A stretch of DNA of 64,000 nucleotides from Promethearchaeota archaeon. GTDB lineage: Archaea; Asgardarchaeota; Lokiarchaeia; Sigyniarchaeales; SOKP01. The notes beneath the pieces are model-generated. The model was not told the DNA's origin, made no database searches, and worked only from the letters and a program-made list of their open reading frames with translations. The position numbers were made by a program, and so were the translations under genes. Every line of letters starts with the position of its first letter. The first letter of the stretch is position 1. Location of the stretch: NCBI GenBank assembly GCA_048937405.1, contig JBHLNF010000011.1, positions 42,119 through 106,118 on the forward strand. The letters run 5' to 3'. This document shows positions 11,924 to 54,822 of the stretch, in pieces.

Positions 11924-12613
11924 ATGAAAGCGATTATTGAAATGCAAATTAAATATGAAAGAAATATTCAAATTAATAAAAAGGATGCATTGATAATTGT
12001 TGATATACAAAACGATTTTCTTCCCGGAGGCGCATTAGCGGTAAATGAGGGAGACTTAATTATTGATGATATTAATAAACTCGCTCAAAAATTTAAAGAT
12101 AATAAGGTTATCATTGTATTAACTCAAGATTGGCATCCAAAAAATCATTTATCGTTTGCTAGTAATCATAAAGGGAAAAAACCAGGAGATGAATATACAT
12201 CGAAAAATGGAGCTATTGGTCCAGTTTTATGGCCTGATCACTGTATACAAGGTACTAATGGGGCAAAATTTCATAAAGATCTAAATACACAATTAGCAAA
12301 TAAGATTATTCAAAAAGGTATACGTCGCAAGGTTGATAGTTATTCTGGATTTCGGGATAATGATAAAAAAACTGAAACTGGTTTGAGAAAATATCTCAAC
12401 TCAAAAAAAATTCAGCGAATTTTTATTTGTGGCTTAGCTCTAGATTATTGTTGCTACTATACAGCGATGGACGGTCTTGAGTTTGGTTATGAAGTATATT
12501 TCATAGAGCGATTAACAAGGGGAGTTGATTTACCAGAAGGTAATATAAATAATGCTCTTAGTAATATGAAGAAATCAGGTATCACATTTGCGGATATTGA
12601 TAGTTTCAAATAA
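11924..12613 (+). CDS. pncA: Nicotinamidase/pyrazinamidase
   Basis: DIQNDF, QDWH, WPDHC, QKG, DSYSGF, GLALDYC: catalytic D-K-C intact. Confidence 0.92.
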   Translation: MKAIIEMQIKYERNIQINKKDALIIVDIQNDFLPGGALAVNEGDLIIDDINKLAQKFKDNKVIIVLTQDWHPKNHLSFASNHKGKKPGDEYTSKNGAIGPVLWPDHCIQGTNGAKFHKDLNTQLANKIIQKGIRRKVDSYSGFRDNDKKTETGLRKYLNSKKIQRIFICGLALDYCCYYTAMDGLEFGYEVYFIERLTRGVDLPEGNINNALSNMKKSGITFADIDSFK

Positions 12614-43323: not shown

Positions 43324-44061
43324 ATTTTAACTGAAGAACAAAAAGAAAGATATTCTAGGCAAATAATTTCTCCCTTTATTGGAGAGGAGGGACAAGAAAA
43401 GATTTCTAAGTTAAAAGTCCTTCAAATTGGCTGTGGAGGTTTGGGCAGTCCATTCGCATTATATTTAACAGCTGCTGGAATAAATCAACTAACTATTATA
43501 GATAATGATATTTTAGATATTTCTAATCTACAACGACAGATACTCTATAATGAAACCCAAATCGGTAAAGAGAAAATTAAATCTGCAAAAAATGTATTGA
43601 TTAAACTTAATTCTGGAGTCAATATAAATACTTATAAAGATTATATTGATGAGAATTCCATCAAGAAGTATCTAAAAGAAGAAAACTATGATTTTATTGT
43701 TGATTGTAGTGATAATTTTAAAACAAAATTTTTAGTCAATAAAATCGCTGTAGAAAATAACTTAAAAAGTGTGATCGCTGGAATAAAAGATTTCTATGGT
43801 CAAATAATGACTATCAATCCAAAAGTTTCCGCATGTTATCAATGTGTTTTCTCACCTATAGAAACTCCGTCAAATGAAGGTCCTTTACCAGTTATTGGGG
43901 TTACACCTGGAATTTTAGGAACGTTAGAAGCTTTAGAAGTAATAAAAACAGCTTTAGGGTTACCTAATTTAGAAAATAAAATTCTTATGGTTAATCTAAT
44001 AGATTTAAGGTTTAATATCATAGATATAATAAAGAATGAAAAATGTATTTGTTCATCATAA
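43324..44061 (+). CDS. ThiF/MoeB/UbaA-family E1-like adenylyltransferase; probable ATT start
   Basis: Frame extends upstream of the called TTG to ILTEEQKERYSRQI...GQEKI...IGCGGLG; also SNLQRQ, DCSDN, ACYQC and a terminal C.IC. Confidence 0.88.
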   Translation: MLTEEQKERYSRQIISPFIGEEGQEKISKLKVLQIGCGGLGSPFALYLTAAGINQLTIIDNDILDISNLQRQILYNETQIGKEKIKSAKNVLIKLNSGVNINTYKDYIDENSIKKYLKEENYDFIVDCSDNFKTKFLVNKIAVENNLKSVIAGIKDFYGQIMTINPKVSACYQCVFSPIETPSNEGPLPVIGVTPGILGTLEALEVIKTALGLPNLENKILMVNLIDLRFNIIDIIKNEKCICSS

Positions 44062-44728: not shown

Positions 44729-45418
44729 TTACCAGAAATTCAAACTATTTTTAGTCGCGAACTTTATTCCCTTTTTAATCATTTTTTTTAGTGAATCGGT
44801 AATATTTCCAGGTGGAACATCAATACCTTTAGTTAGATCTATCAGAAAGTATGTTTCAAAATTAAAGTCAACACCATCTACAGCAGTATTATAACAACAG
44901 TAATCTAGTGCTAAACCACATATGAAAATTCTCTTAATATTAAAAGAATTCAAATATTCTTTCAATCCAGTTTCAGTTTTTTTATCATTTTCAAGAAAAG
45001 CTGAATAGCTATCGATTTCTGGGTTCATACCTTTTTGAATTATCTTATTAATCATTTTTGTATTGATTTCTTTGTGAAATCGCGCACCATAAGTATTTTG
45101 AACACAATGATCAGGCCATAAAATTGGTCCAATTGCCCCATCTTCAGAACTGAATTCATCTCCAGGATCTTTATTTGGATGATTGCTTGCGAAGGATAAA
45201 TGATTTGAAGGGTGCCAATCTTGAGAGTGCACAACGGTGCTATCAACAAAAAATTCAATTACATCATTAATACCATTTATTATTGAATCACCTTCTTCTA
45301 CAGGTAAAGCTCCCCCCGGGAGAAAATCATTCTGCATATCAATAATTAATAGAGCATCATATTTATTAGGGATAATTTTCTTTTCAATTTTTAAATCAAC
45401 ACCATAAAATTTTACCAT
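44729..45418 (-). CDS. pncA: Nicotinamidase/pyrazinamidase (second paralog)
   Basis: DMQNDF, QDWH, WPDHC, QKG, DSYSAF, GLALDYC; ATG at 45418 follows a GGAG SD. Confidence 0.92.
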   Translation of the reverse strand: MVKFYGVDLKIEKKIIPNKYDALLIIDMQNDFLPGGALPVEEGDSIINGINDVIEFFVDSTVVHSQDWHPSNHLSFASNHPNKDPGDEFSSEDGAIGPILWPDHCVQNTYGARFHKEINTKMINKIIQKGMNPEIDSYSAFLENDKKTETGLKEYLNSFNIKRIFICGLALDYCCYNTAVDGVDFNFETYFLIDLTKGIDVPPGNITDSLKKMIKKGIKFATKNSLNFW

Positions 45419-45563
45419 ACTTATCTCCACTTCCTTTAATTATTAAGTATATTTTAAAAAGTCTTTAAATCTAAATGAAAAGTAATAATGTCTGTAATTT
45501 ATGGTAATATTTAATTTCATATCTTAAAAAAAAGATAAATAAATAAAATTAAAAAAAAGAGGA

Positions 45564-47966
45564 TTAAAAATTCTGCATCATTAACCATTGAGTATATAGC
45601 TGAGAAAATTGCATCATAAAATTTGCATCATCTAATGTGCCACTTTTTAAATTATTTATAAGATTTACAATTTCGTTCTTTTTGCTTGTATGAAATTGTC
45701 TTATTCTATCAGAATCTACAACTTCTTCTAGCATATTCATAAATGTGTCCCAATCTATTTCTGTTGGAATTGCAATAGTAGTTTCTTTTTCCTCTACATT
45801 TTTAATCTTAAATATCCGTTGCTGTGCATAGAATTTCTTAACATATTCATATATCTGCTCACATACTCTTTCAAAATCTTGTGGATTATATTCAATGCCG
45901 GGAGGTTGTGAGAGTCCTGTAGTTATTATATCTTGCCATGAAACATCTGTTCCTTTCATGGGTAAGACAGGAACACTATATTTTCTAGAAAGTTCTAATT
46001 CATGAGCACAATCTACTGAATTGAATACGGATTTATTTGTACCTAAAAAGAATATAACATCACTAATAGGGACATTCTGATCCATAAAATCATCTATATT
46101 TCCAGATAAATCTTGCTCACAGAGAAGTACATCATATACTTCGGGTTTTTTCTCTAAATATTCACCTAATGCTGCCAATTTATAAGGTTCATAATCAACA
46201 ACTGCGTGGGATATAAAAATTGCCATACTAGCCCTCTGTTTGAGATAATCTCGTAGGGTATCCATATCACGTTTGATTAATTGTTTTTCTTCTTCTGATA
46301 ATGGATTTTCTTCAATATCAAAATTCTCTAAAGTTTCGAGTGACCATAACAAATATGGTAATGTTTTAAATTTATTACTTTTTAAAGAGATAGTACGAAT
46401 ATTTGAAGTGCCTATACTCTCTGGCAAGGTCTCCATTTGATTTTCAGCAAAGCTGATACTTCTTAAACTTTTACATTGTCCTATTGAGGAAGGGATGGAA
46501 GATAAATTATTCTTGTTAGCAATTAATCCACTGAGGGAAGTCATTCTATCAAAACAATTAGGTAATGAGACCAATACATTGTCGCTAACATCTAAAGTTG
46601 TCAATGATGATAAATTACATAGTTCAGAGGGTAGACTAGTTAATTGGTTTTTGTTTAACGTCAATTTCCCAAGGTTTTTTAAATTTCCTATCTCAATAGG
46701 TAAACTTTCGATTTCATTTCCTTCTAAATTAAGTTCTTTCAATTTCTCTAACTTTCCAATACTTGCAGGTAATTTTTTCAGTTTTCCATTTGTAACTCTC
46801 ATGTGCCATATATTAATTAATTCCCCTATTGAGCCTGGAAGCGATTCTAAAGGAGTTCCTCTTATATCAAGATAACTTAATTTGTTAAGTTCTCCGAAAT
46901 TTTCTGGCAAATTAATTATTTTACAATCTTGAATATTAAGACGTTCTAATCCTTTCATAAGTGCAAAGGATTGGGGTAAAGAAGTTATATTATTTTTACT
47001 TAAATCTAATCCAAATACTTTATCTAAATTACATATTGAATTTGGTAAGCTTTCAAGTGGATTTCCAGTAAAATTAATAGCATTCAAATTTTTCAAATTT
47101 CCAATTGATTCTGGAATTTTTTTGACTTGATTATTATCCAAACGAAATACTTTCAATGAGAGTAAATTTCCTATACTTTCAGGTAATTCATCAAGTTTAT
47201 TATCTTTTACAAGAAGAGTTTGGAGGTTTGATAAATTACCTATTGTATTGGGTAATTTATGCAAATCTAAAGAACTGATCTCCAAGCTTTCAAGTGAAGT
47301 AAGTTCTCCTATTGAGTCTGGTAATTGAGAAATTCGAGTTACTCCTAAGTCAAGAGAAATAAGTGACCTTAGTTGTCCTATATTAGATGGTAAATCTTCT
47401 ATATTGTTATGTCTAAGTGATAATTTTTTAAGAGCAAGTAGATTATATATACTTTCTGGAACACGGGTTAGTCTATTGTCACTTAAATCAAGTTCAGTTA
47501 AAGCTGTACAAGCCTCAATTTCCACGGGGATATCCCTTATTTTATTAGTGCGAAGATCCAATTTCTCAAGATTTTTTAAATTTGAAATCCAGCTTGGTAG
47601 TACTTTCAATTCATTTACTCCCAAATCAAGCTGTTTAAGAGCAGTACAGTTAACTAAGCTAGATGGAAGCTCATAAAGGTTATTTTGTTGGGCAGCAAGC
47701 CATTCTAAATTTGTTAATTCTCCAATAGATTCTGGGATAGTTTCAATTTTATTACCATAAAAAAGTAATGATTGAAGTTTTTTACAATTCCCGATATTTT
47801 CAGGTAAACCTGTAAGAGTTCCTCGAGTAACCTCAATTCGAATAACACGGTTATCTTCAACCCTAAAATTATTTGAACTCCAATCTGATCCCATCTTTTG
47901 TTCTAAATCCTTAAGAACTTCTATCTCTTCTATGGGAAGCGTATAGTTCATGTATTGATCGCTCAT
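45564..47966 (-). CDS. LRR-TIR protein with intact TIR catalytic Glu
   Basis: About 20 23-aa LRRs (LPxSIGxLxxLxxLxLxxN), then IFISH...SDVIFF...S.DCAHEL...VPVLP, then a helical C-terminal domain. Confidence 0.85.
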   Translation of the reverse strand: MSDQYMNYTLPIEEIEVLKDLEQKMGSDWSSNNFRVEDNRVIRIEVTRGTLTGLPENIGNCKKLQSLLFYGNKIETIPESIGELTNLEWLAAQQNNLYELPSSLVNCTALKQLDLGVNELKVLPSWISNLKNLEKLDLRTNKIRDIPVEIEACTALTELDLSDNRLTRVPESIYNLLALKKLSLRHNNIEDLPSNIGQLRSLISLDLGVTRISQLPDSIGELTSLESLEISSLDLHKLPNTIGNLSNLQTLLVKDNKLDELPESIGNLLSLKVFRLDNNQVKKIPESIGNLKNLNAINFTGNPLESLPNSICNLDKVFGLDLSKNNITSLPQSFALMKGLERLNIQDCKIINLPENFGELNKLSYLDIRGTPLESLPGSIGELINIWHMRVTNGKLKKLPASIGKLEKLKELNLEGNEIESLPIEIGNLKNLGKLTLNKNQLTSLPSELCNLSSLTTLDVSDNVLVSLPNCFDRMTSLSGLIANKNNLSSIPSSIGQCKSLRSISFAENQMETLPESIGTSNIRTISLKSNKFKTLPYLLWSLETLENFDIEENPLSEEEKQLIKRDMDTLRDYLKQRASMAIFISHAVVDYEPYKLAALGEYLEKKPEVYDVLLCEQDLSGNIDDFMDQNVPISDVIFFLGTNKSVFNSVDCAHELELSRKYSVPVLPMKGTDVSWQDIITTGLSQPPGIEYNPQDFERVCEQIYEYVKKFYAQQRIFKIKNVEEKETTIAIPTEIDWDTFMNMLEEVVDSDRIRQFHTSKKNEIVNLINNLKSGTLDDANFMMQFSQLYTQWLMMQNF

Positions 47967-50332
47967 TGTTGCTTACCCCCATAAAATTGTGTCATAGCTT
48001 TCTTTTGTTGTATAAATCCCATAAAAAGACCTGAAAGTTGAGTAAGAAACAATCCTTCTCCTCCGATTTTTGCCGATTGTAAGTTATTACATATTCCAGT
48101 TAATGATGGTTTGTTCTGTTCAAAAAATTCTTTCATTTCAGGCATATGAATGATGCGATCAAGTTCGGCTTTAAAGGTTCCAAAACCAGCAGGATCACTA
48201 ACGGCTACAGCTTCTTCTTTTTTTAAGATTATAGATTTATCTTTAAAAATATTATGAGAACGTTTTAATTGTTGAATATAACTATAGACATTTTCACAAA
48301 AACCATCAAAATCATCTGGAGTAAATTCGTGGCCTAACTCACGACTAAGATCTACAGTGGCTAGGTCACCCCAACCAACATCTAGACCTTTCAAAGGGAT
48401 TACTTCAATACCTTGACTTTTAGCACTTTTTAAAATTTGAACCATATCTGGAGAATTAATAGAACCTGCAGTAGCAAGAAATAGAACTAAATCAGTAGCA
48501 TTAAGGTTAGCTTCTATAGGAGGAAAAGTAGCAAATATTTCGCTTTTTTCTTCCAAGAATGCTGTTAAATCCGATATACGATGAGCTTCCGCATCTTTTT
48601 CTTTATAAATTAACATAACTGCAATACTTGCACGTTGACGACAATATTCCAGAATCGCACTGGTGTCTCTTTGAGAAATCTCTTGTTCTTCCTCTGAAAA
48701 TTGATTTTCTTTCACGTCTAACTCATTCAGAGATTCCATTGTATATATAAAATAAGGAAGATTTTTAAGTTGATTATTGGAGATACTTAGAACTGTTAAT
48801 GGAAGTTTTGTAATTACTTCTGGTATTTCTATCAACTGGTTTTCATTTAGATATAATCTTTCTAATGATCCCAAATTTGCTATTGAAGGGGGAATTTCTG
48901 TTATTTTATTACCTCCTATATAAAGCATATTTACTGATTTAAGCTGGTCTATGCAATCTGGAACTTTTTCAATGAGATTGTATGAAAGATCTAATTGAAA
49001 GACTTTTTTTAATCGACAAATAGAAGGAGGAATCTTTGAGATTCTATTTGATCTTAAGCTCAAAAAGCTCAAATCAACTAAGTCACCAATGGATTCAGGA
49101 ATCTCAGTTATTCGATTTGTGTCTAAGAAAAGTTCTTTAAGAGATTTCAATTGACCAATGTTACTTGGCAAAGATTTTAATCCATTTTCCTTACAATTAA
49201 AGATTTTTAGTTTTTTCAAATTACAAAAAGAACTAGGAAGTTCCAAGATCCCATTATATATAGCTTTATCGTCATTTGTTGACCAAGAACCCTCTAAATC
49301 CAATTCTTCTAATTCTGTCAGATTCCCAAAACTTTCAGGTAAAGCATCAAGCTTGTTCCATTTAAGTTTTAAGATTCTTAATTTTGTTAAATTTCCTATC
49401 GATTCAGGTAAAATATCCAATTCTTTCATTACCAAATTTAGACCAATTATATGTTGATTATCACATACAAAACCGAAATGATCTACTTTTACAGGTCTTT
49501 CAGACACTTCAATCCCATATTGTTTACCAATATCTTCCATACTTGGTTGAGAGGGCTGGGTTTTTACACCATATTGTGCAAGCATATTTTGTATTTTTTG
49601 ATATACCGACTGTGCATACTGTTTGGCTGATTGAATTGCCATTTCCTCACTCATTCCTAATAATGGGGTTAATAAAACAAGATTAGGGTCATTTGCACCT
49701 AATTGTTGTATTCCCACATCAATTGTGACTTTTAATTGAGCTTGGTATTCTGGTGTAATCATTGAATTATAATATTTAATACTTTCTTTTTCCAATTCTT
49801 CAAGTGATATTTGAGAGTATATTACCTCATTTATTCTTTGGGTAGCTTCTTTATTAATAGCCTGAAGTTTAAAATTTTGTTGCATAAACTTAGCCATTGT
49901 TTTTGCTTTTTGTTTTGCTTTAGCTTCATCCAATTCTAACATAGATTTCATTTGCTGGATAGAAGGATGGCTTTCTCCTAACATAGGAATAAGAGAATTA
50001 AGTTGTGCTTTAATATTTGATTTCATAGCTGGATTTATTTGAGCTAGGTATTGATTTTCATAAGTTTTTTCTAACTCTTCTAATGAAAGTTGTGCTAATC
50101 TTTCTTGTTCGGTTACTTGAGCTTTAAAAGCTTGAACTTGGGTGCTTAGAATTGTTTTGGCATCCATCTGTGGTGTTTGACGGCTTTCAGCTAATCTGAG
50201 TCTGGTTTCATCTCTCTTCTCAAGACAAGGAATTGCTTCTGCTATTAATTTTTCTACCTGTTCAAGAAATTCAACTTCTGAAGATATTAAGGAAACACCC
50301 TGATATTCTTTCAATTCTTCAATAATAATCAC
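47963..50332 (-). CDS. LRR-TIR-like paralog with degenerate TIR and N-terminal helical repeat insertion
   Basis: About 11 LRRs; C-terminus aligns with the neighbour (QRASIAV...DLVLFLAT..S.NSPDMVQIL...VIPLKG.DV.W.D); 4-bp stop/start overlap; start may be ATT at 50323. Confidence 0.8.
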   Translation of the reverse strand: MIIIEELKEYQGVSLISSEVEFLEQVEKLIAEAIPCLEKRDETRLRLAESRQTPQMDAKTILSTQVQAFKAQVTEQERLAQLSLEELEKTYENQYLAQINPAMKSNIKAQLNSLIPMLGESHPSIQQMKSMLELDEAKAKQKAKTMAKFMQQNFKLQAINKEATQRINEVIYSQISLEELEKESIKYYNSMITPEYQAQLKVTIDVGIQQLGANDPNLVLLTPLLGMSEEMAIQSAKQYAQSVYQKIQNMLAQYGVKTQPSQPSMEDIGKQYGIEVSERPVKVDHFGFVCDNQHIIGLNLVMKELDILPESIGNLTKLRILKLKWNKLDALPESFGNLTELEELDLEGSWSTNDDKAIYNGILELPSSFCNLKKLKIFNCKENGLKSLPSNIGQLKSLKELFLDTNRITEIPESIGDLVDLSFLSLRSNRISKIPPSICRLKKVFQLDLSYNLIEKVPDCIDQLKSVNMLYIGGNKITEIPPSIANLGSLERLYLNENQLIEIPEVITKLPLTVLSISNNQLKNLPYFIYTMESLNELDVKENQFSEEEQEISQRDTSAILEYCRQRASIAVMLIYKEKDAEAHRISDLTAFLEEKSEIFATFPPIEANLNATDLVLFLATAGSINSPDMVQILKSAKSQGIEVIPLKGLDVGWGDLATVDLSRELGHEFTPDDFDGFCENVYSYIQQLKRSHNIFKDKSIILKKEEAVAVSDPAGFGTFKAELDRIIHMPEMKEFFEQNKPSLTGICNNLQSAKIGGEGLFLTQLSGLFMGFIQQKKAMTQFYGGKQQ

Positions 50333-50477
50333 CTAATACAAATGATTATTGGAATTTTGATTTTATTTTTCAATTAGTATTATTAATGAAGCTTAAGAAT
50401 TTTTATATGTTTGCATTCACTATAATAAAAAATCTAATGAAAATAATTCAATATATATCTTTTCAAAAGTGATTAAG

Positions 50478-52928
50478 ATGGAAAAACCATCTGTCGAAAG
50501 TAAGAAATCTAATATAAATATTGATGAACGAACTACTACTGAAGCTAAAATTTCAAAAAAAGTAATTGAAACTGTACTATCGTATCATAGCCTTGAAGTA
50601 AGAGATATTGAGATTAGTCCTGATGGAAATTTCTTAATCTCCTGCTCTGAATATGAAGAAAATGAAAATCCTTACTTAATTGTTTGGAATATTGGCCAAC
50701 TTTTAGAAGGAGATACTACACCTGAAGTTAAACTTCAAGCAGAGAATAAAGTGAATAAATACACTAAAATTACAAATTGGCTTTTATGCGCTGATTCTAC
50801 GGTTGTTGAAATTGAAGGCATAAAATGGTGGGTAATATGCTCTGGAAGTATTGGTGGAGATATCTATATATGGTCTTTTAGACTTACTCCCGATTTAAGA
50901 AAATGGGATTTTAAGAATTATAAAACGGTTATCCTATCTGGAGGGAATGGAAATGATGAAAAATATCCAAAAGCTATATTTGATATCAAGATTCAAAAAG
51001 AAAAAAGTCAAGACAATATGCTCCACATTTATTTTGTACTAAATAATATACATACATCAATATGGAAAGAAAAAACTAATGATAACACCCTTAATAAAGT
51101 GGATATTACTCTTGATAGCTCTGGAATAATTTCAAGAATAGATAACATTAAAGTAATTGGTAGAAATGATGTTTGGATAACTAAATTAATGATTAAAAGA
51201 GATTTAGAAGAAGAAATATTATTTACTGGTTCTAAAGATGGTAAAGTAAATCTATGGAATATTGGGATCGAAAAAGATCCAATGTTGATAGGTGAACATG
51301 ATGGTGCAATAACAGATATCAGTATAATCCAAAATGGTAAAATGATTGCTTCATCATCTACAGATACAAAAATAACCATATGGGAACAAGAGTATGCAAA
51401 TAAATATCGTAAAAAAATAGATCTACTTGGACATACTGAAGCTGTTTTATCACTTGATGTTCAAACTGATAACAATTTTATGGTTTCGGCTTCTAAAGAT
51501 AACACCATTAAAATTTGGGATTTAAACAATTTTAGGTGGATAAGAAGTATAGATATACATCATTATTTAGAGGACTATGAAAAAATTAAAGGGAGTGTTA
51601 GGCAAAATGTTATAATAAAGGGATTAGACTTTGTAAGAAATATCAAAATAACTCCTGAAAATCGTTATATCTTTGTCACCAAGTATAACAGAATTATTAT
51701 TCTACGTAATTTTGGTAGTGTATGGCATTTTATTCAGCAATTAAAATTCATTAAAAAAAACGATCCTGAATTATATCGAAAGATTTATGGAAATAATTTA
51801 AAGCAAATAGCTAAACACAGCCCAGAAAATGAAGAATCTCTCGGTAATTTATACAATATACTGAAAAAACGCTTAATAAAAAGCAGGAAAATGGAGTTAG
51901 AAGGGAAAACTGAACAAAAAATAGAATATAATATGCGTGAACTTGGTACTCTTTTTATACCTTTTTTTATGAAATTTGAATCAAAATTAAAATCCCAAAA
52001 GCAATTTATCTTAGGAACAAAACAAAATTACGAAGCATATTGGCATAGTGTAAGAAATTCTATATTTAAACACCCAGATATCCCTTGGGGATTTAAATTA
52101 TATATTACAACTTCAGAGATGGATGAAAGGATTGAAGATTCCAATTTTGTTGAAATCACAGCTCGAACTGGAGAAATACCATATATCATTCTTGATGATC
52201 GTTCTCAGACACAAATCCGGTTTTTAATGGTATTAAATAATGTTCAAACCAATTTTATTCCTCTGTTAAACAATATTTCTATAGATATCGAAGATGATCG
52301 TGGAGATAAAGATACTTTAGTTTTTTCTGATTTCACTTATTCTAAAAATTTCCTACGAATTTTAACAAATCCAACACGATCTTTAGATAAGGTCAAAAAG
52401 ATCAATGAACCGGATTATATTTATTATGCTGATTGCACTTTTCAGATTGATGAAGGCTATTGCACTGATAATTTTGCAAATATTTTTATAAGGAAAATAA
52501 CAGTAGAATATACCGAGACTTTAGAACCATCAGAATCAATAACAAGTGATGAAGAAGATTTTAAAATCTTTGAAGCTTTTAGAAAAAATTTTATTTATCC
52601 ATTAACTCCGAAAACTAAGATCCAAATAGGTAAAGGTTTAAAATCAAAACTGGGAAAAATGATTGATGAATACTTTACTAAAATAATCATTATAGAATTT
52701 ATATTGAGTTTATGGGGTATAATTGAAAGTGGATTAGCCCGCACAGAACTTAGTCAGAATTTACTTGAAAGGATTTCAGCAATCGTGGATGTAGCATCTA
52801 TTCTTATTATTGCTATCATTTTCATAATGATATTTGTTCAATCACGCGGTGGAAAAAAAAGAGAGATTGATATAGAAGAATTAGATCAAAAAATGAGAAA
52901 AAGGAGGAGAAGAAAATTTGGAAAATAA
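50478..52928 (+). CDS. WD40-repeat protein with C-terminal two-TM anchor
   Basis: GSKDGKVNLWN, SSSTDTKITIWE, GHTEAV...SASKDNTIKIWD; two hydrophobic helices then a basic tail. Confidence 0.82.
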   Translation: MEKPSVESKKSNINIDERTTTEAKISKKVIETVLSYHSLEVRDIEISPDGNFLISCSEYEENENPYLIVWNIGQLLEGDTTPEVKLQAENKVNKYTKITNWLLCADSTVVEIEGIKWWVICSGSIGGDIYIWSFRLTPDLRKWDFKNYKTVILSGGNGNDEKYPKAIFDIKIQKEKSQDNMLHIYFVLNNIHTSIWKEKTNDNTLNKVDITLDSSGIISRIDNIKVIGRNDVWITKLMIKRDLEEEILFTGSKDGKVNLWNIGIEKDPMLIGEHDGAITDISIIQNGKMIASSSTDTKITIWEQEYANKYRKKIDLLGHTEAVLSLDVQTDNNFMVSASKDNTIKIWDLNNFRWIRSIDIHHYLEDYEKIKGSVRQNVIIKGLDFVRNIKITPENRYIFVTKYNRIIILRNFGSVWHFIQQLKFIKKNDPELYRKIYGNNLKQIAKHSPENEESLGNLYNILKKRLIKSRKMELEGKTEQKIEYNMRELGTLFIPFFMKFESKLKSQKQFILGTKQNYEAYWHSVRNSIFKHPDIPWGFKLYITTSEMDERIEDSNFVEITARTGEIPYIILDDRSQTQIRFLMVLNNVQTNFIPLLNNISIDIEDDRGDKDTLVFSDFTYSKNFLRILTNPTRSLDKVKKINEPDYIYYADCTFQIDEGYCTDNFANIFIRKITVEYTETLEPSESITSDEEDFKIFEAFRKNFIYPLTPKTKIQIGKGLKSKLGKMIDEYFTKIIIIEFILSLWGIIESGLARTELSQNLLERISAIVDVASILIIAIIFIMIFVQSRGGKKREIDIEELDQKMRKRRRRKFGK

Positions 52929-53784
52929 AAAATTAAATATTATTATAACCAGTTCGGTTCAAAATGATTTCATTGAACCGTTAGATATTCACCCCACATC
53001 AGAAGATAGTTTAAAATTAGGTTATGGTCAAGTTTCAGATAAATGGATGGAGTACTTTTTGAATCAGAAAAGGGATACAAGTGAAGCAAATGTTGATCAA
53101 TTTATTTCATGGCTAAAAAATAATTCCAGTAGTGAAGTGATTGGAGGTGCTCTATCATACCATCATATCTTAGAGCATTATAGACATAGAGTTCATATTG
53201 ACTATGATGAAAGTAGAAGAATATGGGAAGGTGAAAAATTAAGCCAATTTATACGAGAATTAATGATTAAAGCATCTGACTCCAATTCAAATGAGATGAG
53301 AGGAATAGAATATCAATGCATTCATCTAAGGGATTGGCATGACCAAACAGACGAATCTCAAAAGGGTGAGATGGATCTTTTTGGACCTCACTGTATTAAA
53401 GGTACATATGGAGCGAAATTTATTTCACCCTTAGATGAGTTAATACAAAAACATCATGAATTTAACGTTATTTTAAATTCAAACAGCCTTAGTTCCTTCG
53501 ATGAGACAGATCTCGAACATGTACTAGATACGGTTATTAAAAATGCAGGGAGTTCCCATAAAGAAGTTAAAATTGGAGTTTTTGGGGTAATTACTAACGT
53601 AAAAGTTTTTCTTTTAACTTTTGAGCTTATGACTATCCATAAATTTAGAAATGTTTATGTCTGTGGTGATTTCTGTGCTGGTTTTAACAAACAAGGACAT
53701 CAAGCAGGTATTAGCGCTATGGCTAGTATCTTAGCGGCAAATATAGTTGATCATAATAAATTTAGAGAAATCTTTAATATATAA
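52918..53784 (+). CDS. Divergent isochorismatase/nicotinamidase-fold protein, probably non-catalytic
   Basis: SVQNDF, RDWH, FGPHCIKGTYGA, GVITNVKV; 11-nt overlap with the WD40 gene; AGGAGG SD. Confidence 0.75.
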   Translation: MENKKLNIIITSSVQNDFIEPLDIHPTSEDSLKLGYGQVSDKWMEYFLNQKRDTSEANVDQFISWLKNNSSSEVIGGALSYHHILEHYRHRVHIDYDESRRIWEGEKLSQFIRELMIKASDSNSNEMRGIEYQCIHLRDWHDQTDESQKGEMDLFGPHCIKGTYGAKFISPLDELIQKHHEFNVILNSNSLSSFDETDLEHVLDTVIKNAGSSHKEVKIGVFGVITNVKVFLLTFELMTIHKFRNVYVCGDFCAGFNKQGHQAGISAMASILAANIVDHNKFREIFNI

Positions 53785-53880: not shown

Positions 53881-54822
53881 ATGAATACAAAACAATTACA
53901 AGATATTATATTAGCCTTAAAGAAAGAAAATGATGTAACAATTCTAGCTCATTATTATCAGCCAATAGAAATTCAAGAAATTGCTGATTTTGTGGGAGAT
54001 TCTCTTGGCTTATCTCGTACAGCAAAAAATAAACCAAATGAATATATAATATTCGCTGGAGTCGATTTTATGGCTGAAACTGCATCAATTTTAAATCAAG
54101 ATAAACATGTCCTAATCCCTAATTATGAATCTTGTTGTCCAATGGCAGCTTATCTTACACCTGAAATGATAAGAGAATTTAAAAAAAAGTATCCAGATCT
54201 ACCTGTTGTTGTATATGTTAATTCTACTGCAGCTGTAAAAGCAGAATCTGATATCTGTTGTACTTCTTCAAATGCAATTAAGATCGTTAATAAAATTAGT
54301 CAAGAATTTGGGGTTTCCTCTGTATTATTCGGTCCAGATGCAAATCTAGCTGATTATACAGAACAAAAATCTGAAATAGAATGTATAAAAATGCCAGAGG
54401 AAGGTCATTGTTATGTGCATTCACAAATTAAACCAGAACACATAGATAAAGTAAAAGAAAAACATCCTCATGCAAAACTGCTTGTTCATCCAGAATGTAT
54501 TAGAGATGTGAGGGAATTAGCGGATTTTGTAGGATCAACAACACAAATGTATAATAGGGTAAAAAATAGTACTCTTGATGAAAAAGAATTTCTTATCGGT
54601 ACTGAGGAGGCATTTAGAGAACGTTTGACTCAAGATTTTAAAGATAAAAATTTTTACACAGTTAAAGACAATTTGATTTGTTTTAATATGAAAAAGCATA
54701 ATCTTGAGCTTATCAAATATATCCTCAAGAACCTTAATGACCAAGCTTTTGAAGTCAAAGTTCCATCTGATATTGCTAAAAAGGCTTTAATTCCAATTAA
54801 TAAAATGTTAAATTATTCTTAG
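53881..54822 (+). CDS. nadA: Quinolinate synthase
   Basis: LAHYYQ, GDSL, FMAETA, CPMA, YVNSTA.VKA.SDICCTSSNA, HPEC, GST, C.NMK. Confidence 0.96.
   Translation: MNTKQLQDIILALKKENDVTILAHYYQPIEIQEIADFVGDSLGLSRTAKNKPNEYIIFAGVDFMAETASILNQDKHVLIPNYESCCPMAAYLTPEMIREFKKKYPDLPVVVYVNSTAAVKAESDICCTSSNAIKIVNKISQEFGVSSVLFGPDANLADYTEQKSEIECIKMPEEGHCYVHSQIKPEHIDKVKEKHPHAKLLVHPECIRDVRELADFVGSTTQMYNRVKNSTLDEKEFLIGTEEAFRERLTQDFKDKNFYTVKDNLICFNMKKHNLELIKYILKNLNDQAFEVKVPSDIAKKALIPINKMLNYS

What the first reader, a model, noticed from the sequence alone, without database searches (positions are those of the whole stretch)
45564..50332. Paired soluble LRR-TIR receptors: one catalytic, one pseudo-TIR
Seen: two paralogs coupled by an ATGA overlap (47963-47966), each built as cap, LRRs, TIR-like domain and a shared helical tail of about 60 aa. 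Neither has a TM helix, NB-ARC/NACHT or Roc GTPase domain. In the alignment NSVDCAHEL versus NSPDMVQIL, the downstream protein keeps the Glu at the TIR NADase position (codon 45999-46001). The upstream one has Ile there, has lost FISH (VMLIY) and has a shorter BB-loop region. Known: LRR plus TIR is the domain pairing of Toll-like and plant TNL receptors, and plant NLRs often act as linked sensor/executor pairs. Inference: a heteromeric sensor-executor innate-immune module in an Asgard archaeon, which I do not recognise as a described system.
Basis: partly seen in the sequence, partly recalled or inferred. Interest (0 to 1): 0.9.

Follow-up and report, generated by a model that had tools for sequence, protein, structure and literature searches.

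The report
Paired active/dead LRR-TIR proteins, Asgard archaea
Two overlapping genes in a Promethearchaeota (Loki-type Asgard) genome encode a leucine-rich-repeat protein with an intact TIR NADase motif and a partner whose TIR has lost that motif but is highly conserved; the two always occur together and are predicted to bind through a shared helical tail, like a sensor/executor pair with no known archaeal counterpart.

Summary
Two minus-strand genes (800 aa, 45564-47966; 789 aa, 47963-50332) overlap by ATGA and are paralogs. Both are soluble: LRRs, then a TIR domain, then a helical tail.

- **TIR fold:** the AF2 model scores Z 14.9 against SPARTA and 14.2 against RPS4. Pfam TIR_2 hits 105 of 138 family members.
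- **Downstream protein:** it keeps the family's near-invariant motifs, including Glu656 (codon 45999-46001).
- **Upstream protein:** it has Ile at that position, has lost FISH, lacks 11 BB-loop residues, and carries a roughly 245-aa orphan helical insert in its LRR cap.

New evidence:
- The dead-TIR partner sits directly upstream in all 14 assessable representative genomes with a P0001 ortholog, and beside none of about 57 more distant LRR-TIR genes.
- Flanking genes are not conserved.
- Both partners form well-supported clades.
- The dead TIR is the most constrained domain (dN/dS about 0.08).
- A complex model joins the two tails (ipSAE 0.77, best control 0.02).

The family is almost entirely Asgard. 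I found no matching PADLOC model or paper.

A heteromeric NADase module is well supported computationally. An immune role, catalysis and binding are untested. The NAD-gene neighbourhood is lineage-specific synteny.

The parts
47963..50332 (-). Upstream gene (P0002, 789 aa from GTG 50332; a public gene call starts 6 codons later, 783 aa). It is the LRR protein with the catalytically degenerate TIR.
   Evidence: ORF; translation; LRR Pfam hits; the 783-aa call (P0186).
49478..50212 (-). Orphan all-helical insert (residues ~41-285, two units of ~93 aa) inside the N-terminal LRR cap of P0002.
   Evidence: Conserved in 24 orthologs, with invariant IPCxExRD and other columns. AF2 pLDDT 83.6, with cap strands at 7-16, 36-39 and 287-299 flanking the helices. 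No fold match: Foldseek found nothing at E<=1e-3 and VIA gave best Z 6.9, generic helical bundles. No Pfam hit.
48668..49477 (-). LRR region of P0002 (residues 286-555, about 10 repeats).
   Evidence: Pfam LRR_14 and LRR_8; motif count.
48233..48667 (-). Degenerate ('pseudo') TIR domain of P0002 (residues 556-700). It has Ile633 (codon 48434-48436) where the family has Glu, MLIY instead of FISH, and the BB-loop region deleted.
   Evidence: phmmer against the P0001 C-terminus gives E 2.4e-30. Key-residue table. It is the most conserved domain among orthologs: mean 79% identity, dN/dS about 0.08.
47966..48232 (-). Linker and C-terminal helical tail of P0002 (residues 701-789). Predicted interface residues are about 714-775.
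   Evidence: Homologous to the P0001 tail; interface residues from the complex model.
47963..47966 (-). ATGA stop/start overlap joining the two genes.
   Evidence: Read from the sequence. ATGA or GTGA overlaps occur in 9 of 14 orthologous loci. Four of the other five have adjacent or 1-nt-overlapping stop/start or a 2-3 nt gap; L028's start was not resolved.
45564..47966 (-). Downstream gene (P0001, 800 aa): the LRR protein with an intact TIR NADase signature.
   Evidence: ORF; translation; LRR Pfam hits.
46260..47966 (-). N-cap and about 22 LRRs of P0001 (residues 1-569).
   Evidence: Pfam LRR_14 at E 1.7e-66; motifs with a 23-residue period from 41 to 546.
45822..46259 (-). TIR domain of P0001 (residues 570-715), with FISH 584-587, the CExDLxGNID loop 616-625, S650/D652/C653 and Glu656 (codon 45999-46001).
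   Evidence: AF2 pLDDT 90.7. VIA Z 14.9, rmsd 2.4 A over 128 residues to SPARTA TIR; 14.2 to RPS4 TIR; 13.7 to SARM1. Foldseek top hits are TIRs. Pfam TIR_2 hits 105/138 family members. Glu is present in 161/171 aligned domains.
45567..45821 (-). Linker and C-terminal helical tail of P0001 (residues 716-800). Predicted interface residues are about 735-795.
   Evidence: Helices at model residues 170-230 with pLDDT above 90; interface residues. No specific relatives: only small generic helical bundles.
45526..45563 (-). T-rich tract immediately after the P0001 stop codon, including runs of 8 T. It looks like an archaeal terminator, so the pair is probably a bicistronic unit separate from pncA.
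   Evidence: Read from the sequence. Its function as a terminator is inferred.

Best explanation
The two genes are a conserved bicistronic module restricted to Promethearchaeota-type Asgard archaea. They encode two cytosolic LRR-TIR proteins that work as a hetero-oligomer.

**Downstream protein.** It has about 22 LRRs and carries a TIR domain with every near-invariant residue of its family, including the Glu at the TIR NADase position. It is the executor.

**Upstream protein.** It has about 10 LRRs and a conserved orphan helical domain inserted in its LRR cap. Its TIR cannot be catalytic in the canonical way: it has no Glu, no FISH motif and no BB loop. Yet that TIR is the most strongly constrained part of the protein, so it acts as a regulatory or sensor subunit.

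**Inferred mechanism.** The two chains are held together by their homologous C-terminal helical tails. In the resting complex the BB-loop-less dead TIR cannot supply the loop that active TIR assemblies need. It therefore either keeps the catalytic TIR from self-associating or positions it. When a ligand binds the LRRs or the inserted domain, the catalytic TIRs assemble and cleave NAD+. That depletes NAD+ or yields an ADPR-type signal, most plausibly as a conflict or defence response.

**Shown here:** domain architecture, fold, motif status, co-occurrence and selection.

**Predicted only:** the tail-tail contact.

**Inferred:** catalysis, the trigger and the physiological role.
For: - **Fold and family.** The TIR fold has Z 14.9 / 2.4 A / 128 residues to SPARTA TIR, and nearly all of the top 46 entries are TIR domains. 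Pfam TIR_2 hits 105/138 family members, best E 3.4e-12.
- **Motif status.** Glu656 is conserved in 161/171 family domains. The exceptions are mainly a clade with M-I-x-D, a loop deletion and I/L/V/M at the Glu position.
- **Co-occurrence.** The dead-TIR partner with its N-domain lies immediately upstream on the same strand in 14/14 assessable representative genomes with a P0001 ortholog (>=66% TIR identity). It accompanies none of about 57 loci with more distant LRR-TIR paralogs. The pair also appears in metagenomic loci L001-L003.
- **Coupling.** Stop/start overlap or near-abutment is conserved.
- **Flanks.** They are unrelated in the divergent loci L027, L028, L029, L003 and L002, so only the pair is the unit.
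- **Phylogeny.** Each partner forms a clade with SH-aLRT 100. The L001+L010 grouping recurs in both clades.
- **Selection.** The dead TIR averages 79% identity, against 63-64% for the other domains. Its dN/dS is about 0.08, against 0.16-0.19 for the rest of the protein and 0.12 for the catalytic TIR.
- **Complex model.** ipSAE 0.77 (runs 0.76/0.77/0.79), best of 3 controls 0.02. In the tool's calibration this mark was reached by 58 of 80 solved complexes and 2 of 110 mismatched pairs, and these counts hold only roughly because my own alignments were used. The runs agree in at least 85% of contacts and partner pLDDT is 75-78. The interface lies in the tails, so the result is not a recall of solved TIR-TIR dimers.
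- **Distribution.** It is patchy. The pair is found in 2 of 26 genomes of its own family (G000 and G030) among the 151 phylum genomes sampled. None of four other same-genus genomes has it.
Against: - No enzymatic, binding or expression data exist.
- The complex score is a model's own confidence. Because the two tails are paralogous, the same tail may mediate homodimers. Tail-bearing single LRR-TIR genes exist without a dead partner, and a 'close cousin' can pass this test.
- No known defence gene lies beside the pair. In 10 of 14 genomes it sits in a syntenic housekeeping block.
- No PADLOC model matches.
- Residue-level equivalence of Glu656 with the catalytic Glu of solved TIRs rests on the SxxC..EL motif and its place in the alpha-C helix of the model, not on a printed structural alignment.
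- dS is near saturation (about 0.8-1.2), so the dN/dS values are approximate.
Confidence: 0.55

Rival explanations
1. This is a non-immune signalling scaffold. The pair belongs to the large Asgard repertoire of repeat-containing signalling proteins. On this reading the TIR domains serve mainly as homotypic interaction modules, or as regulated NAD-consuming switches in physiology, and there is no role in conflict with viruses or mobile elements.
For: - The genome holds 16 copies of this TIR family.
- Family members fuse the TIR to LRR, WD40-LRR, TPR-LRR and beta-propeller repeats without any NTPase or recognised effector.
- The pair lies in a conserved housekeeping neighbourhood in 10 relatives.
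- There are no defence genes nearby.
Against: - The NADase Glu and the surrounding motif are nearly invariant in the family, which points to catalysis rather than pure scaffolding.
- Patchy presence among close relatives and relocation of the pair into unrelated contexts are typical of accessory or conflict genes. Those contexts include a transposase neighbour and a ParE/methyltransferase neighbourhood.
Confidence: 0.22
2. This is an NAD-homeostasis module. The pair would work with the neighbouring nicotinamidase (PncA), the nicotinamidase-like protein, the WD40 protein and NadA as an NAD-centred metabolic or signalling locus.
For: - PncA (NCBIfam equivalog NF008623, 202.6 bits against a cut-off of 174) lies 133 nt downstream.
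- An isochorismatase-like gene and NadA lie just upstream on the other strand.
- The WD40/isochorismatase-like/NadA block accompanies the pair in the three relatives whose flanks were read in full, and WD40 accompanies it in 10 relatives.
- TIR NADases release nicotinamide, which is the PncA substrate (established knowledge).
Against: - PncA follows the pair only in this genome and its two closest relatives, L017 and L018. In eight other syntenic genomes the pair runs straight into the hexapeptide-transferase gene.
- The whole NAD/WD40 block is missing beside the pair in L027, L028, L029 and L003.
- In same-genus genomes without the pair, PncA sits in an unrelated context.
- A T-rich terminator-like tract separates the pair from pncA.
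- The linkage is therefore explained by shared ancestry of close relatives.
Confidence: 0.1
3. These are two independent paralogs that merely sit in tandem. The upstream protein has a TIR-derived binding domain with its own unrelated function, and the two proteins do not interact.
For: - Other tandem LRR-TIR genes occur in the same genome and elsewhere with both TIRs intact (L011 and L032). Tandem arrays are therefore common in this family.
- The two clades are not sisters in the tree.
Against: - Strict 14/14 co-occurrence in a fixed order.
- Conserved translational coupling.
- Joint relocation into different genomic contexts.
- A predicted tail-tail interface well above the controls.
Confidence: 0.1

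Closest known systems
Plant paired TIR-NLRs RRS1/RPS4 (sensor with integrated decoy plus executor; TIR heterodimer, PDB 4c6t)
   Same: - Two linked paralogous TIR + LRR proteins act as a unit.
- One partner carries an extra integrated domain and a TIR not expected to be catalytic. The other has a catalytic-type TIR.
- RPS4 and RRS1 TIRs are among the best structural matches, at Z 14.2 and 12.7.
   Different: - There is no NB-ARC/STAND NTPase.
- Domain order is LRR then TIR, not TIR-NB-LRR.
- The genes are co-directional and translationally coupled rather than head-to-head.
- The predicted contact is through a dedicated C-terminal helical tail, not the TIR AE interface.
- The organism is an archaeon.
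- The resemblance is functional analogy. Common descent of the pairing is not implied.
Prokaryotic TIR NADase defence proteins (SPARTA TIR-APAZ, Thoeris ThsB, AbTir-type TIRs; Pfam TIR_2 PF13676)
   Same: - The TIR_2-type fold is shared, with the best structural matches at Z 14-15 to SPARTA TIR.
- The Glu sits in the alpha-C motif.
- Activation by oligomerisation is expected.
   Different: - There is no Argonaute/APAZ, no ThsA-type effector and no PADLOC match.
- The sensor is an LRR solenoid.
- The system contains a dedicated, conserved, catalytically dead TIR paralog and a C-terminal dimerisation tail.
Toll-like receptors (LRR ectodomain - TM helix - cytosolic TIR)
   Same: The order LRR then TIR lies on one polypeptide, and dimerisation is expected to bring the TIRs together.
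   Different: - There is no signal peptide or TM helix, so the protein is cytosolic.
- The TIR keeps an NADase-type Glu instead of being a pure adaptor scaffold.
- The subfamily is confined to Asgard archaea.
- No evidence of orthology was sought or found.
Bacterial repeat-TIR proteins (LRR, WD40 or TPR fused to TIR) noted in comparative-genomic surveys of conflict systems
   Same: The architecture is a repeat sensor plus TIR without an NTPase. The Asgard family shows the same range of fusions.
   Different: That such bacterial architectures are described is my recollection and was not checked here. An obligate active/dead TIR pair with a shared tail and an integrated orphan domain was not found in the literature searched.

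Membership tests
TIR domain superfamily (Pfam TIR_2, PF13676) | Significant match to the family profile | tested here: met
   P0001 alone is sub-threshold: E 0.003, 18.5 bits against a cut-off of 28. But 105 of 138 aligned family members match TIR_2 at E<=0.01, best 3.4e-12. P0001 and P0002 are both clear homologs of those members.
TIR domain superfamily (Pfam TIR_2, PF13676) | Flavodoxin-like TIR fold (five-stranded parallel sheet with helices A-E) | tested here: met
   The AF2 model has pLDDT 90.7. VIA gives Z 14.9, rmsd 2.4 A over 128 residues to SPARTA TIR, and TIR domains fill nearly all of the top 46 entries. Foldseek's top hits are TIRs. The P0002 domain was not modelled alone; its membership follows from homology at E 2.4e-30.
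Catalytic TIR NADases | Glu in the alpha-C helix motif (S..C..EL type) | tested here: met
   P0001 has Glu656 within NSVDCAHEL, inside helix 82-93 of the model. It is conserved in 161/171 family domains. The match to the catalytic Glu of solved TIRs is by motif and position, not by a residue-level superposition.
Catalytic TIR NADases | The same Glu in the upstream protein P0002 | tested here: not met
   P0002 has Ile633. The whole ortholog clade has I/L/V/M there, has lost the Ser/His of FISH, and lacks the BB-loop segment.
Catalytic TIR NADases | NAD+ cleavage activity dependent on the Glu | not testable with these tools
   This needs a biochemical assay.
Toll-like receptors | Transmembrane helix between the LRR ectodomain and the TIR | tested here: not met
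   The maximum 19-residue hydropathy is 0.98 (P0001) and 1.29 (P0002), and there is no hydrophobic N-terminus.
Plant TNL / paired NLR (RRS1-RPS4 type) | Central NB-ARC (STAND NTPase) domain | tested here: not met
   Pfam found no NB-ARC, NACHT or AAA hit at E<=1 in either protein.
Thoeris | A ThsB-type TIR together with a ThsA (SIR2/Macro-SLOG) effector gene | tested here: not met
   Neither protein has a PADLOC hit, and 10 neighbours have none apart from generic E1 similarity of ThiF. Only 4 of 138 family members touch the ThsB_TIR model weakly.
SPARTA (short pAgo / TIR-APAZ) | APAZ domain fused to the TIR, and an adjacent short Argonaute | tested here: not met
   This is the best structural match for the TIR domain only. 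The rest of the protein is LRR plus a helical tail, and no Argonaute lies in the neighbourhood.

The most novel reading that the evidence does not exclude
An Asgard-specific innate-immune receptor pair that lacks an NTPase. A catalytically dead, BB-loop-less TIR subunit carrying an integrated orphan helical 'bait' domain gates an LRR-TIR NADase executor. The gating runs through a dedicated C-terminal dimerisation bundle. This would be an independent archaeal version of the sensor/executor logic of plant RRS1/RPS4 pairs.
Probability: 0.35. Interest if true: 0.85.

Novelty: new variant of a known kind. Interest (0 to 1): 0.66.

Why it matters
TIR domains and LRR sensors are core parts of animal and plant innate immunity, and how they came to work together is an open question. 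Here the closest prokaryotic relatives of eukaryotes carry a lineage-specific family of cytosolic LRR-TIR proteins. Within it is a strictly co-inherited pair, one member with an enzyme-type TIR and one with a dead but highly constrained TIR.

If the pair works as predicted, three things would follow:
- Sensor/executor division of labour between TIR paralogs has arisen outside plants.
- There would be a minimal TIR regulation system without an NTPase that could be studied biochemically.
- A new helical dimerisation module and an orphan candidate ligand-binding domain would be defined.

It would also add a candidate defence system that current archaeal defence catalogues (PADLOC) miss.

Tried and rejected
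- **PDB sequence searches.** The P0001 C-terminus alone and the family profile A1 gave no TIR hit, only coiled-coil noise from the tail.
- **PADLOC.** Nothing for either protein. For neighbours, only generic E1 hits to ThiF and a weak HEAT-ARM hit to the WD40 protein.
- **Fold of the P0002 N-terminal insert.** Foldseek found nothing at E<=1e-3. VIA wide gave best Z 6.9 to unrelated helical proteins, within the background for helical models. No fold was assigned.
- **Tail.** The Atlas feature search gave no usable hit, and its structure search returned only small generic helical bundles.
- **PncA linkage.**
  - The gene downstream of the pair in L001 is not homologous to PncA.
  - PncA follows the pair only in the three closest genomes.
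  - I therefore rejected the NAD-locus idea as the main explanation.
- **RNA evidence.** No RNA holder was listed for the stretch, only sediment or mangrove metagenome DNA runs.
- **First genome-contig scan.** With alignment A1 it failed for lack of a conserved stretch. It was repeated with the narrower alignment A4.
- **Literature.** Searches for Asgard/Lokiarchaeota with TIR, LRR or NADase found only general defence reviews and the Asgard defence survey (PMC11291487). That survey mentions a TIR-NLR entry but no LRR-TIR pair.
- **Bacterial MAG labels.** A few loci are labelled Ignavibacteria, Anoxychlamydiales or Nanopelagicaceae. I took these as probable mis-binning, because L030 is 84% identical to P0001 and carries the same syntenic genes. 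This was not checked further.
- **Not run (job cap).** Homodimer controls for the tail, meaning P0001 with itself and P0002 with itself.
Full report
**1. What is there**

The minus strand carries two long ORFs, 47963-50332 (P0002, 789 aa, GTG start) and 45564-47966 (P0001, 800 aa). The stop of the first and the start of the second overlap in ATGA at 47963-47966. A 38-nt T-rich tract follows the P0001 stop, before the next gene. A 136-nt AT-rich spacer separates P0002 from a divergently transcribed WD40 gene.

The window has 25-34% G+C. The nearest proteins and loci are labelled Promethearchaeota, Lokiarchaeota and other Asgard names. The window belongs to a 4.47-Mb, 29-contig assembly.

**2. 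Domain anatomy**

- **LRRs.** Both proteins have strong LRR hits. P0001 has about 22 repeats with a 23-residue period, and P0002 about 10.
- **Absent domains.** Pfam finds no NB-ARC, NACHT, Roc or other NTPase. No segment is hydrophobic enough for a membrane helix.
- **Paralogy.** The C-terminal ~500 residues of the two proteins align at 31% identity, E 3e-76.
- **Beyond the LRRs.** Each protein has a domain of about 145 aa followed by a linker and a helical tail of about 65 aa.
- **P0002 insert.**
  - P0002 also has a conserved all-helical region of about 245 aa, in two units of ~93 aa, set inside its N-terminal LRR cap. Another first-stage note (e1-5562388) suggested this layout.
  - My AF2 model is consistent with it: cap strands at 7-16, 36-39 and 287-299 flank the helices, pLDDT 83.6.
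  - The insert has no Pfam hit and no convincing fold match.

**3. Is the C-terminal domain a TIR?**

On its own, P0001 gives only a sub-threshold TIR_2 hit: 18.5 bits against a cut-off of 28. P0002 gives none.

The domain nevertheless belongs to a large family. An exhaustive search found 316 representative clusters at E<=1e-3. Of 138 aligned members, 105 match TIR_2, best E 3.4e-12.

An AF2 model of P0001 residues 570-800 (pLDDT 90.7) matches solved TIR domains:

| Structure | Z | rmsd / aligned |
|---|---|---|
| SPARTA TIR | 14.9 | 2.4 A / 128 residues |
| RPS4 TIR | 14.2 | 2.4 A / 130 residues |
| SARM1 | 13.7 | 3.0 A / 134 residues |
| AbTir | 12.9 | 2.9 A / 126 residues |

TIR domains fill nearly all of the top 46 entries. 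Foldseek agrees. HMMER profile searches of PDB sequences did not find TIRs, so the relationship is remote in sequence but clear in fold.

**4. Active versus dead**

Across 171 aligned domains the family has near-invariant positions:
- F584, S586, H587 and D591;
- C616, E617, D619, G622, N623 and D625, which form the loop after beta-B;
- S646, S650, D652, C653 and E656 (161/171);
- P669, K671, W677 and G690.

P0001 keeps all of them. Glu656 (codon 45999-46001) lies in the alpha-C helix of the model, within an S..DC..EL motif. By established knowledge of TIR NADases, that is where the catalytic Glu sits.

P0002 and its orthologs form the main exception. They have M-I-x-D instead of F-S-H-D, a deletion covering the DLxGNID loop (11 residues in the pairwise alignment), and I/L/V/M at the Glu position.

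**5. The dead TIR is not decaying**

Among 27 orthologs of P0002, the degenerate TIR is the most conserved region. Mean identity to P0002 is 79%, against 63% for the insert, 63% for the LRRs and 64% for the tail. In the five most divergent orthologs it is 57-64%, against 20-47% for the insert, LRRs and tail.

Pairwise Nei-Gojobori estimates on 12 loci give these dN/dS values:

| Region | dN/dS |
|---|---|
| Dead TIR (P0002) | about 0.08 |
| Other parts of P0002 | 0.16-0.19 |
| Catalytic TIR (P0001) | 0.12 |

dS is near saturation, so the values are approximate.

**6. The pair is the unit**

- **Co-occurrence.**
  - A motif scan of one genome per prokaryotic species returned 73 loci.
  - In all 14 loci whose TIR is >=66% identical to P0001 and whose upstream DNA is present, a P0002-type gene lies immediately upstream on the same strand. 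That gene has the dead TIR and the helical insert.
  - None of about 57 loci with more distant LRR-TIR paralogs has such a partner.
- **Junctions.** ATGA or GTGA overlaps occur in nine loci. Four others have an abutting or 1-nt-overlapping stop/start or a 2-3 nt gap, and L028's start was not resolved.
- **Metagenomic contigs.** They show the same arrangement.
- **Tree.**
  - In a tree of 115 TIR domains, the dead-TIR proteins form one clade (SH-aLRT 100, stem 0.63).
  - The catalytic partners form another (SH-aLRT 100, stem 0.57).
  - The two clades are not sisters, although the backbone is unresolved.
  - The L001+L010 grouping recurs in both.
- **Distribution.** It is patchy. Among 151 genomes of the phylum, 21 have any family member, 18 of 25 of those in one family. 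The pair itself is seen in only two genomes, G000 and G030. None of four other same-genus genomes has it.

**7. Neighbourhood**

In this window the pair lies between two sets of genes:
- on one side, a bona fide nicotinamidase gene (NF008623, 202.6 bits);
- on the other, a divergent WD40 gene, an isochorismatase-like gene and nadA.

This prompted other first-stage notes about an NAD-centred locus. The comparison does not support a conserved functional link:
- PncA follows the pair only here and in the two closest relatives.
- Eight further syntenic genomes go straight from the pair to the hexapeptide-transferase gene.
- The whole block is absent beside the pair in L027, L028, L029 and L003, whose flanks are unrelated.

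Some of those other contexts contain a transposase, a ParE toxin, a Uma2 nuclease and a DNA methyltransferase. No neighbour in this window matches a known defence system.

**8. Do the proteins bind?**

One complex job was run with the two C-terminal fragments and their alignments.

- **Score.** It gave ipSAE 0.77 (runs 0.76, 0.77, 0.79), against a best control of 0.02.
- **Run agreement.** The runs agree in at least 85% of contacts, and partner pLDDT is 75-78.
- **Calibration.** This mark was reached by 58 of 80 solved complexes and 2 of 110 mismatched pairs. The counts hold only roughly here because my own alignments were used.
- **Interface.** The confident interface is tail against tail (P0001 ~735-795, P0002 ~714-775), not TIR against TIR. 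The result is therefore not simply a recall of solved TIR dimers.
- **Caveat.** The tails are paralogous and also occur on unpaired family members. The tail may therefore be a general dimerisation module, and I could not run homodimer controls.

**9. Interpretation**

The best reading is a heteromeric LRR-TIR module. An NADase-competent subunit is paired with a dead TIR subunit that is strongly constrained, lacks the BB loop and carries an integrated orphan domain. The two are held together by their tails.

In solved TIR assemblies, by established knowledge, the BB loop of one TIR completes the active site of its neighbour. A partner without that loop is well suited to cap or restrain assembly until a ligand is sensed.

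A conflict or defence role is plausible from the patchy distribution and from the general role of prokaryotic TIR NADases, but it is not shown. The rivals carry lower but real weight: a physiological signalling role, an NAD-homeostasis role, or independent tandem paralogs.

**10. Novelty**

The parts (LRR, TIR_2) are known, and databases already label relatives as 'LRR' or 'TIR domain-containing' proteins. Three things were not found in PADLOC or in the searched literature:
- the obligate active/dead pairing;
- the shared tail;
- the integrated helical domain in an Asgard-restricted family.

I class it as a new variant of a known kind.

Noticed in passing
window 44729-45430 (-) and 11942-12607 (+): There are two nicotinamidase (PncA) genes, 61% identical to each other. 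The copy directly downstream of the TIR pair occurs in that position only in this genome and its two closest relatives (L017, L018). It is therefore a recent insertion next to a predicted nicotinamide-releasing enzyme.
   Followed up: partly
window 50469-53784 (+): An 819-aa WD40 protein overlaps by 11 nt a 288-aa isochorismatase-like protein that has no NCBIfam nicotinamidase match. nadA follows at 53881-54822. WD40 lies beside the pair in 10 close relatives, and the full three-gene block was confirmed in L012, L014 and L016. It is absent from distant pair loci.
   Followed up: partly
G000 contig C7:722610-725482 (locus L011 4587-8572): The same genome has a second tandem of LRR-TIR genes (729 aa and 564 aa), both with catalytic-type TIRs, and 16 family TIR matches in total. 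Several of those matches show in-frame stops in the six-frame search.
   Followed up: partly
L001 3841-5253 (-): In one metagenomic locus a third, shorter LRR-TIR gene (470 aa, 54% identical to P0001, same clade as P0006) sits divergently just upstream of the pair.
   Followed up: no
L082 493-2103 (-): A Helarchaeota-labelled contig has a 537-aa ORF whose TIR scores better against the dead-TIR query than the catalytic one (38% identity). It has no helical insert and lies on the opposite strand to a neighbouring LRR-TIR gene. This may be an independent TIR degeneration.
   Followed up: no
window 43441-44061 (+): The ThiF/E1-like gene matches many PADLOC 'E1-E2' models at E down to 6e-14. This is probably generic E1-domain similarity. 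It sits next to Roadblock and LSM genes in a block conserved among relatives.
   Followed up: no
loci L030, L059, L076: Family members appear in MAGs labelled Ignavibacteria, Anoxychlamydiales and Nanopelagicaceae. L030 is 84% identical to P0001 and shares the Asgard synteny, so these labels look like binning contamination.
   Followed up: partly
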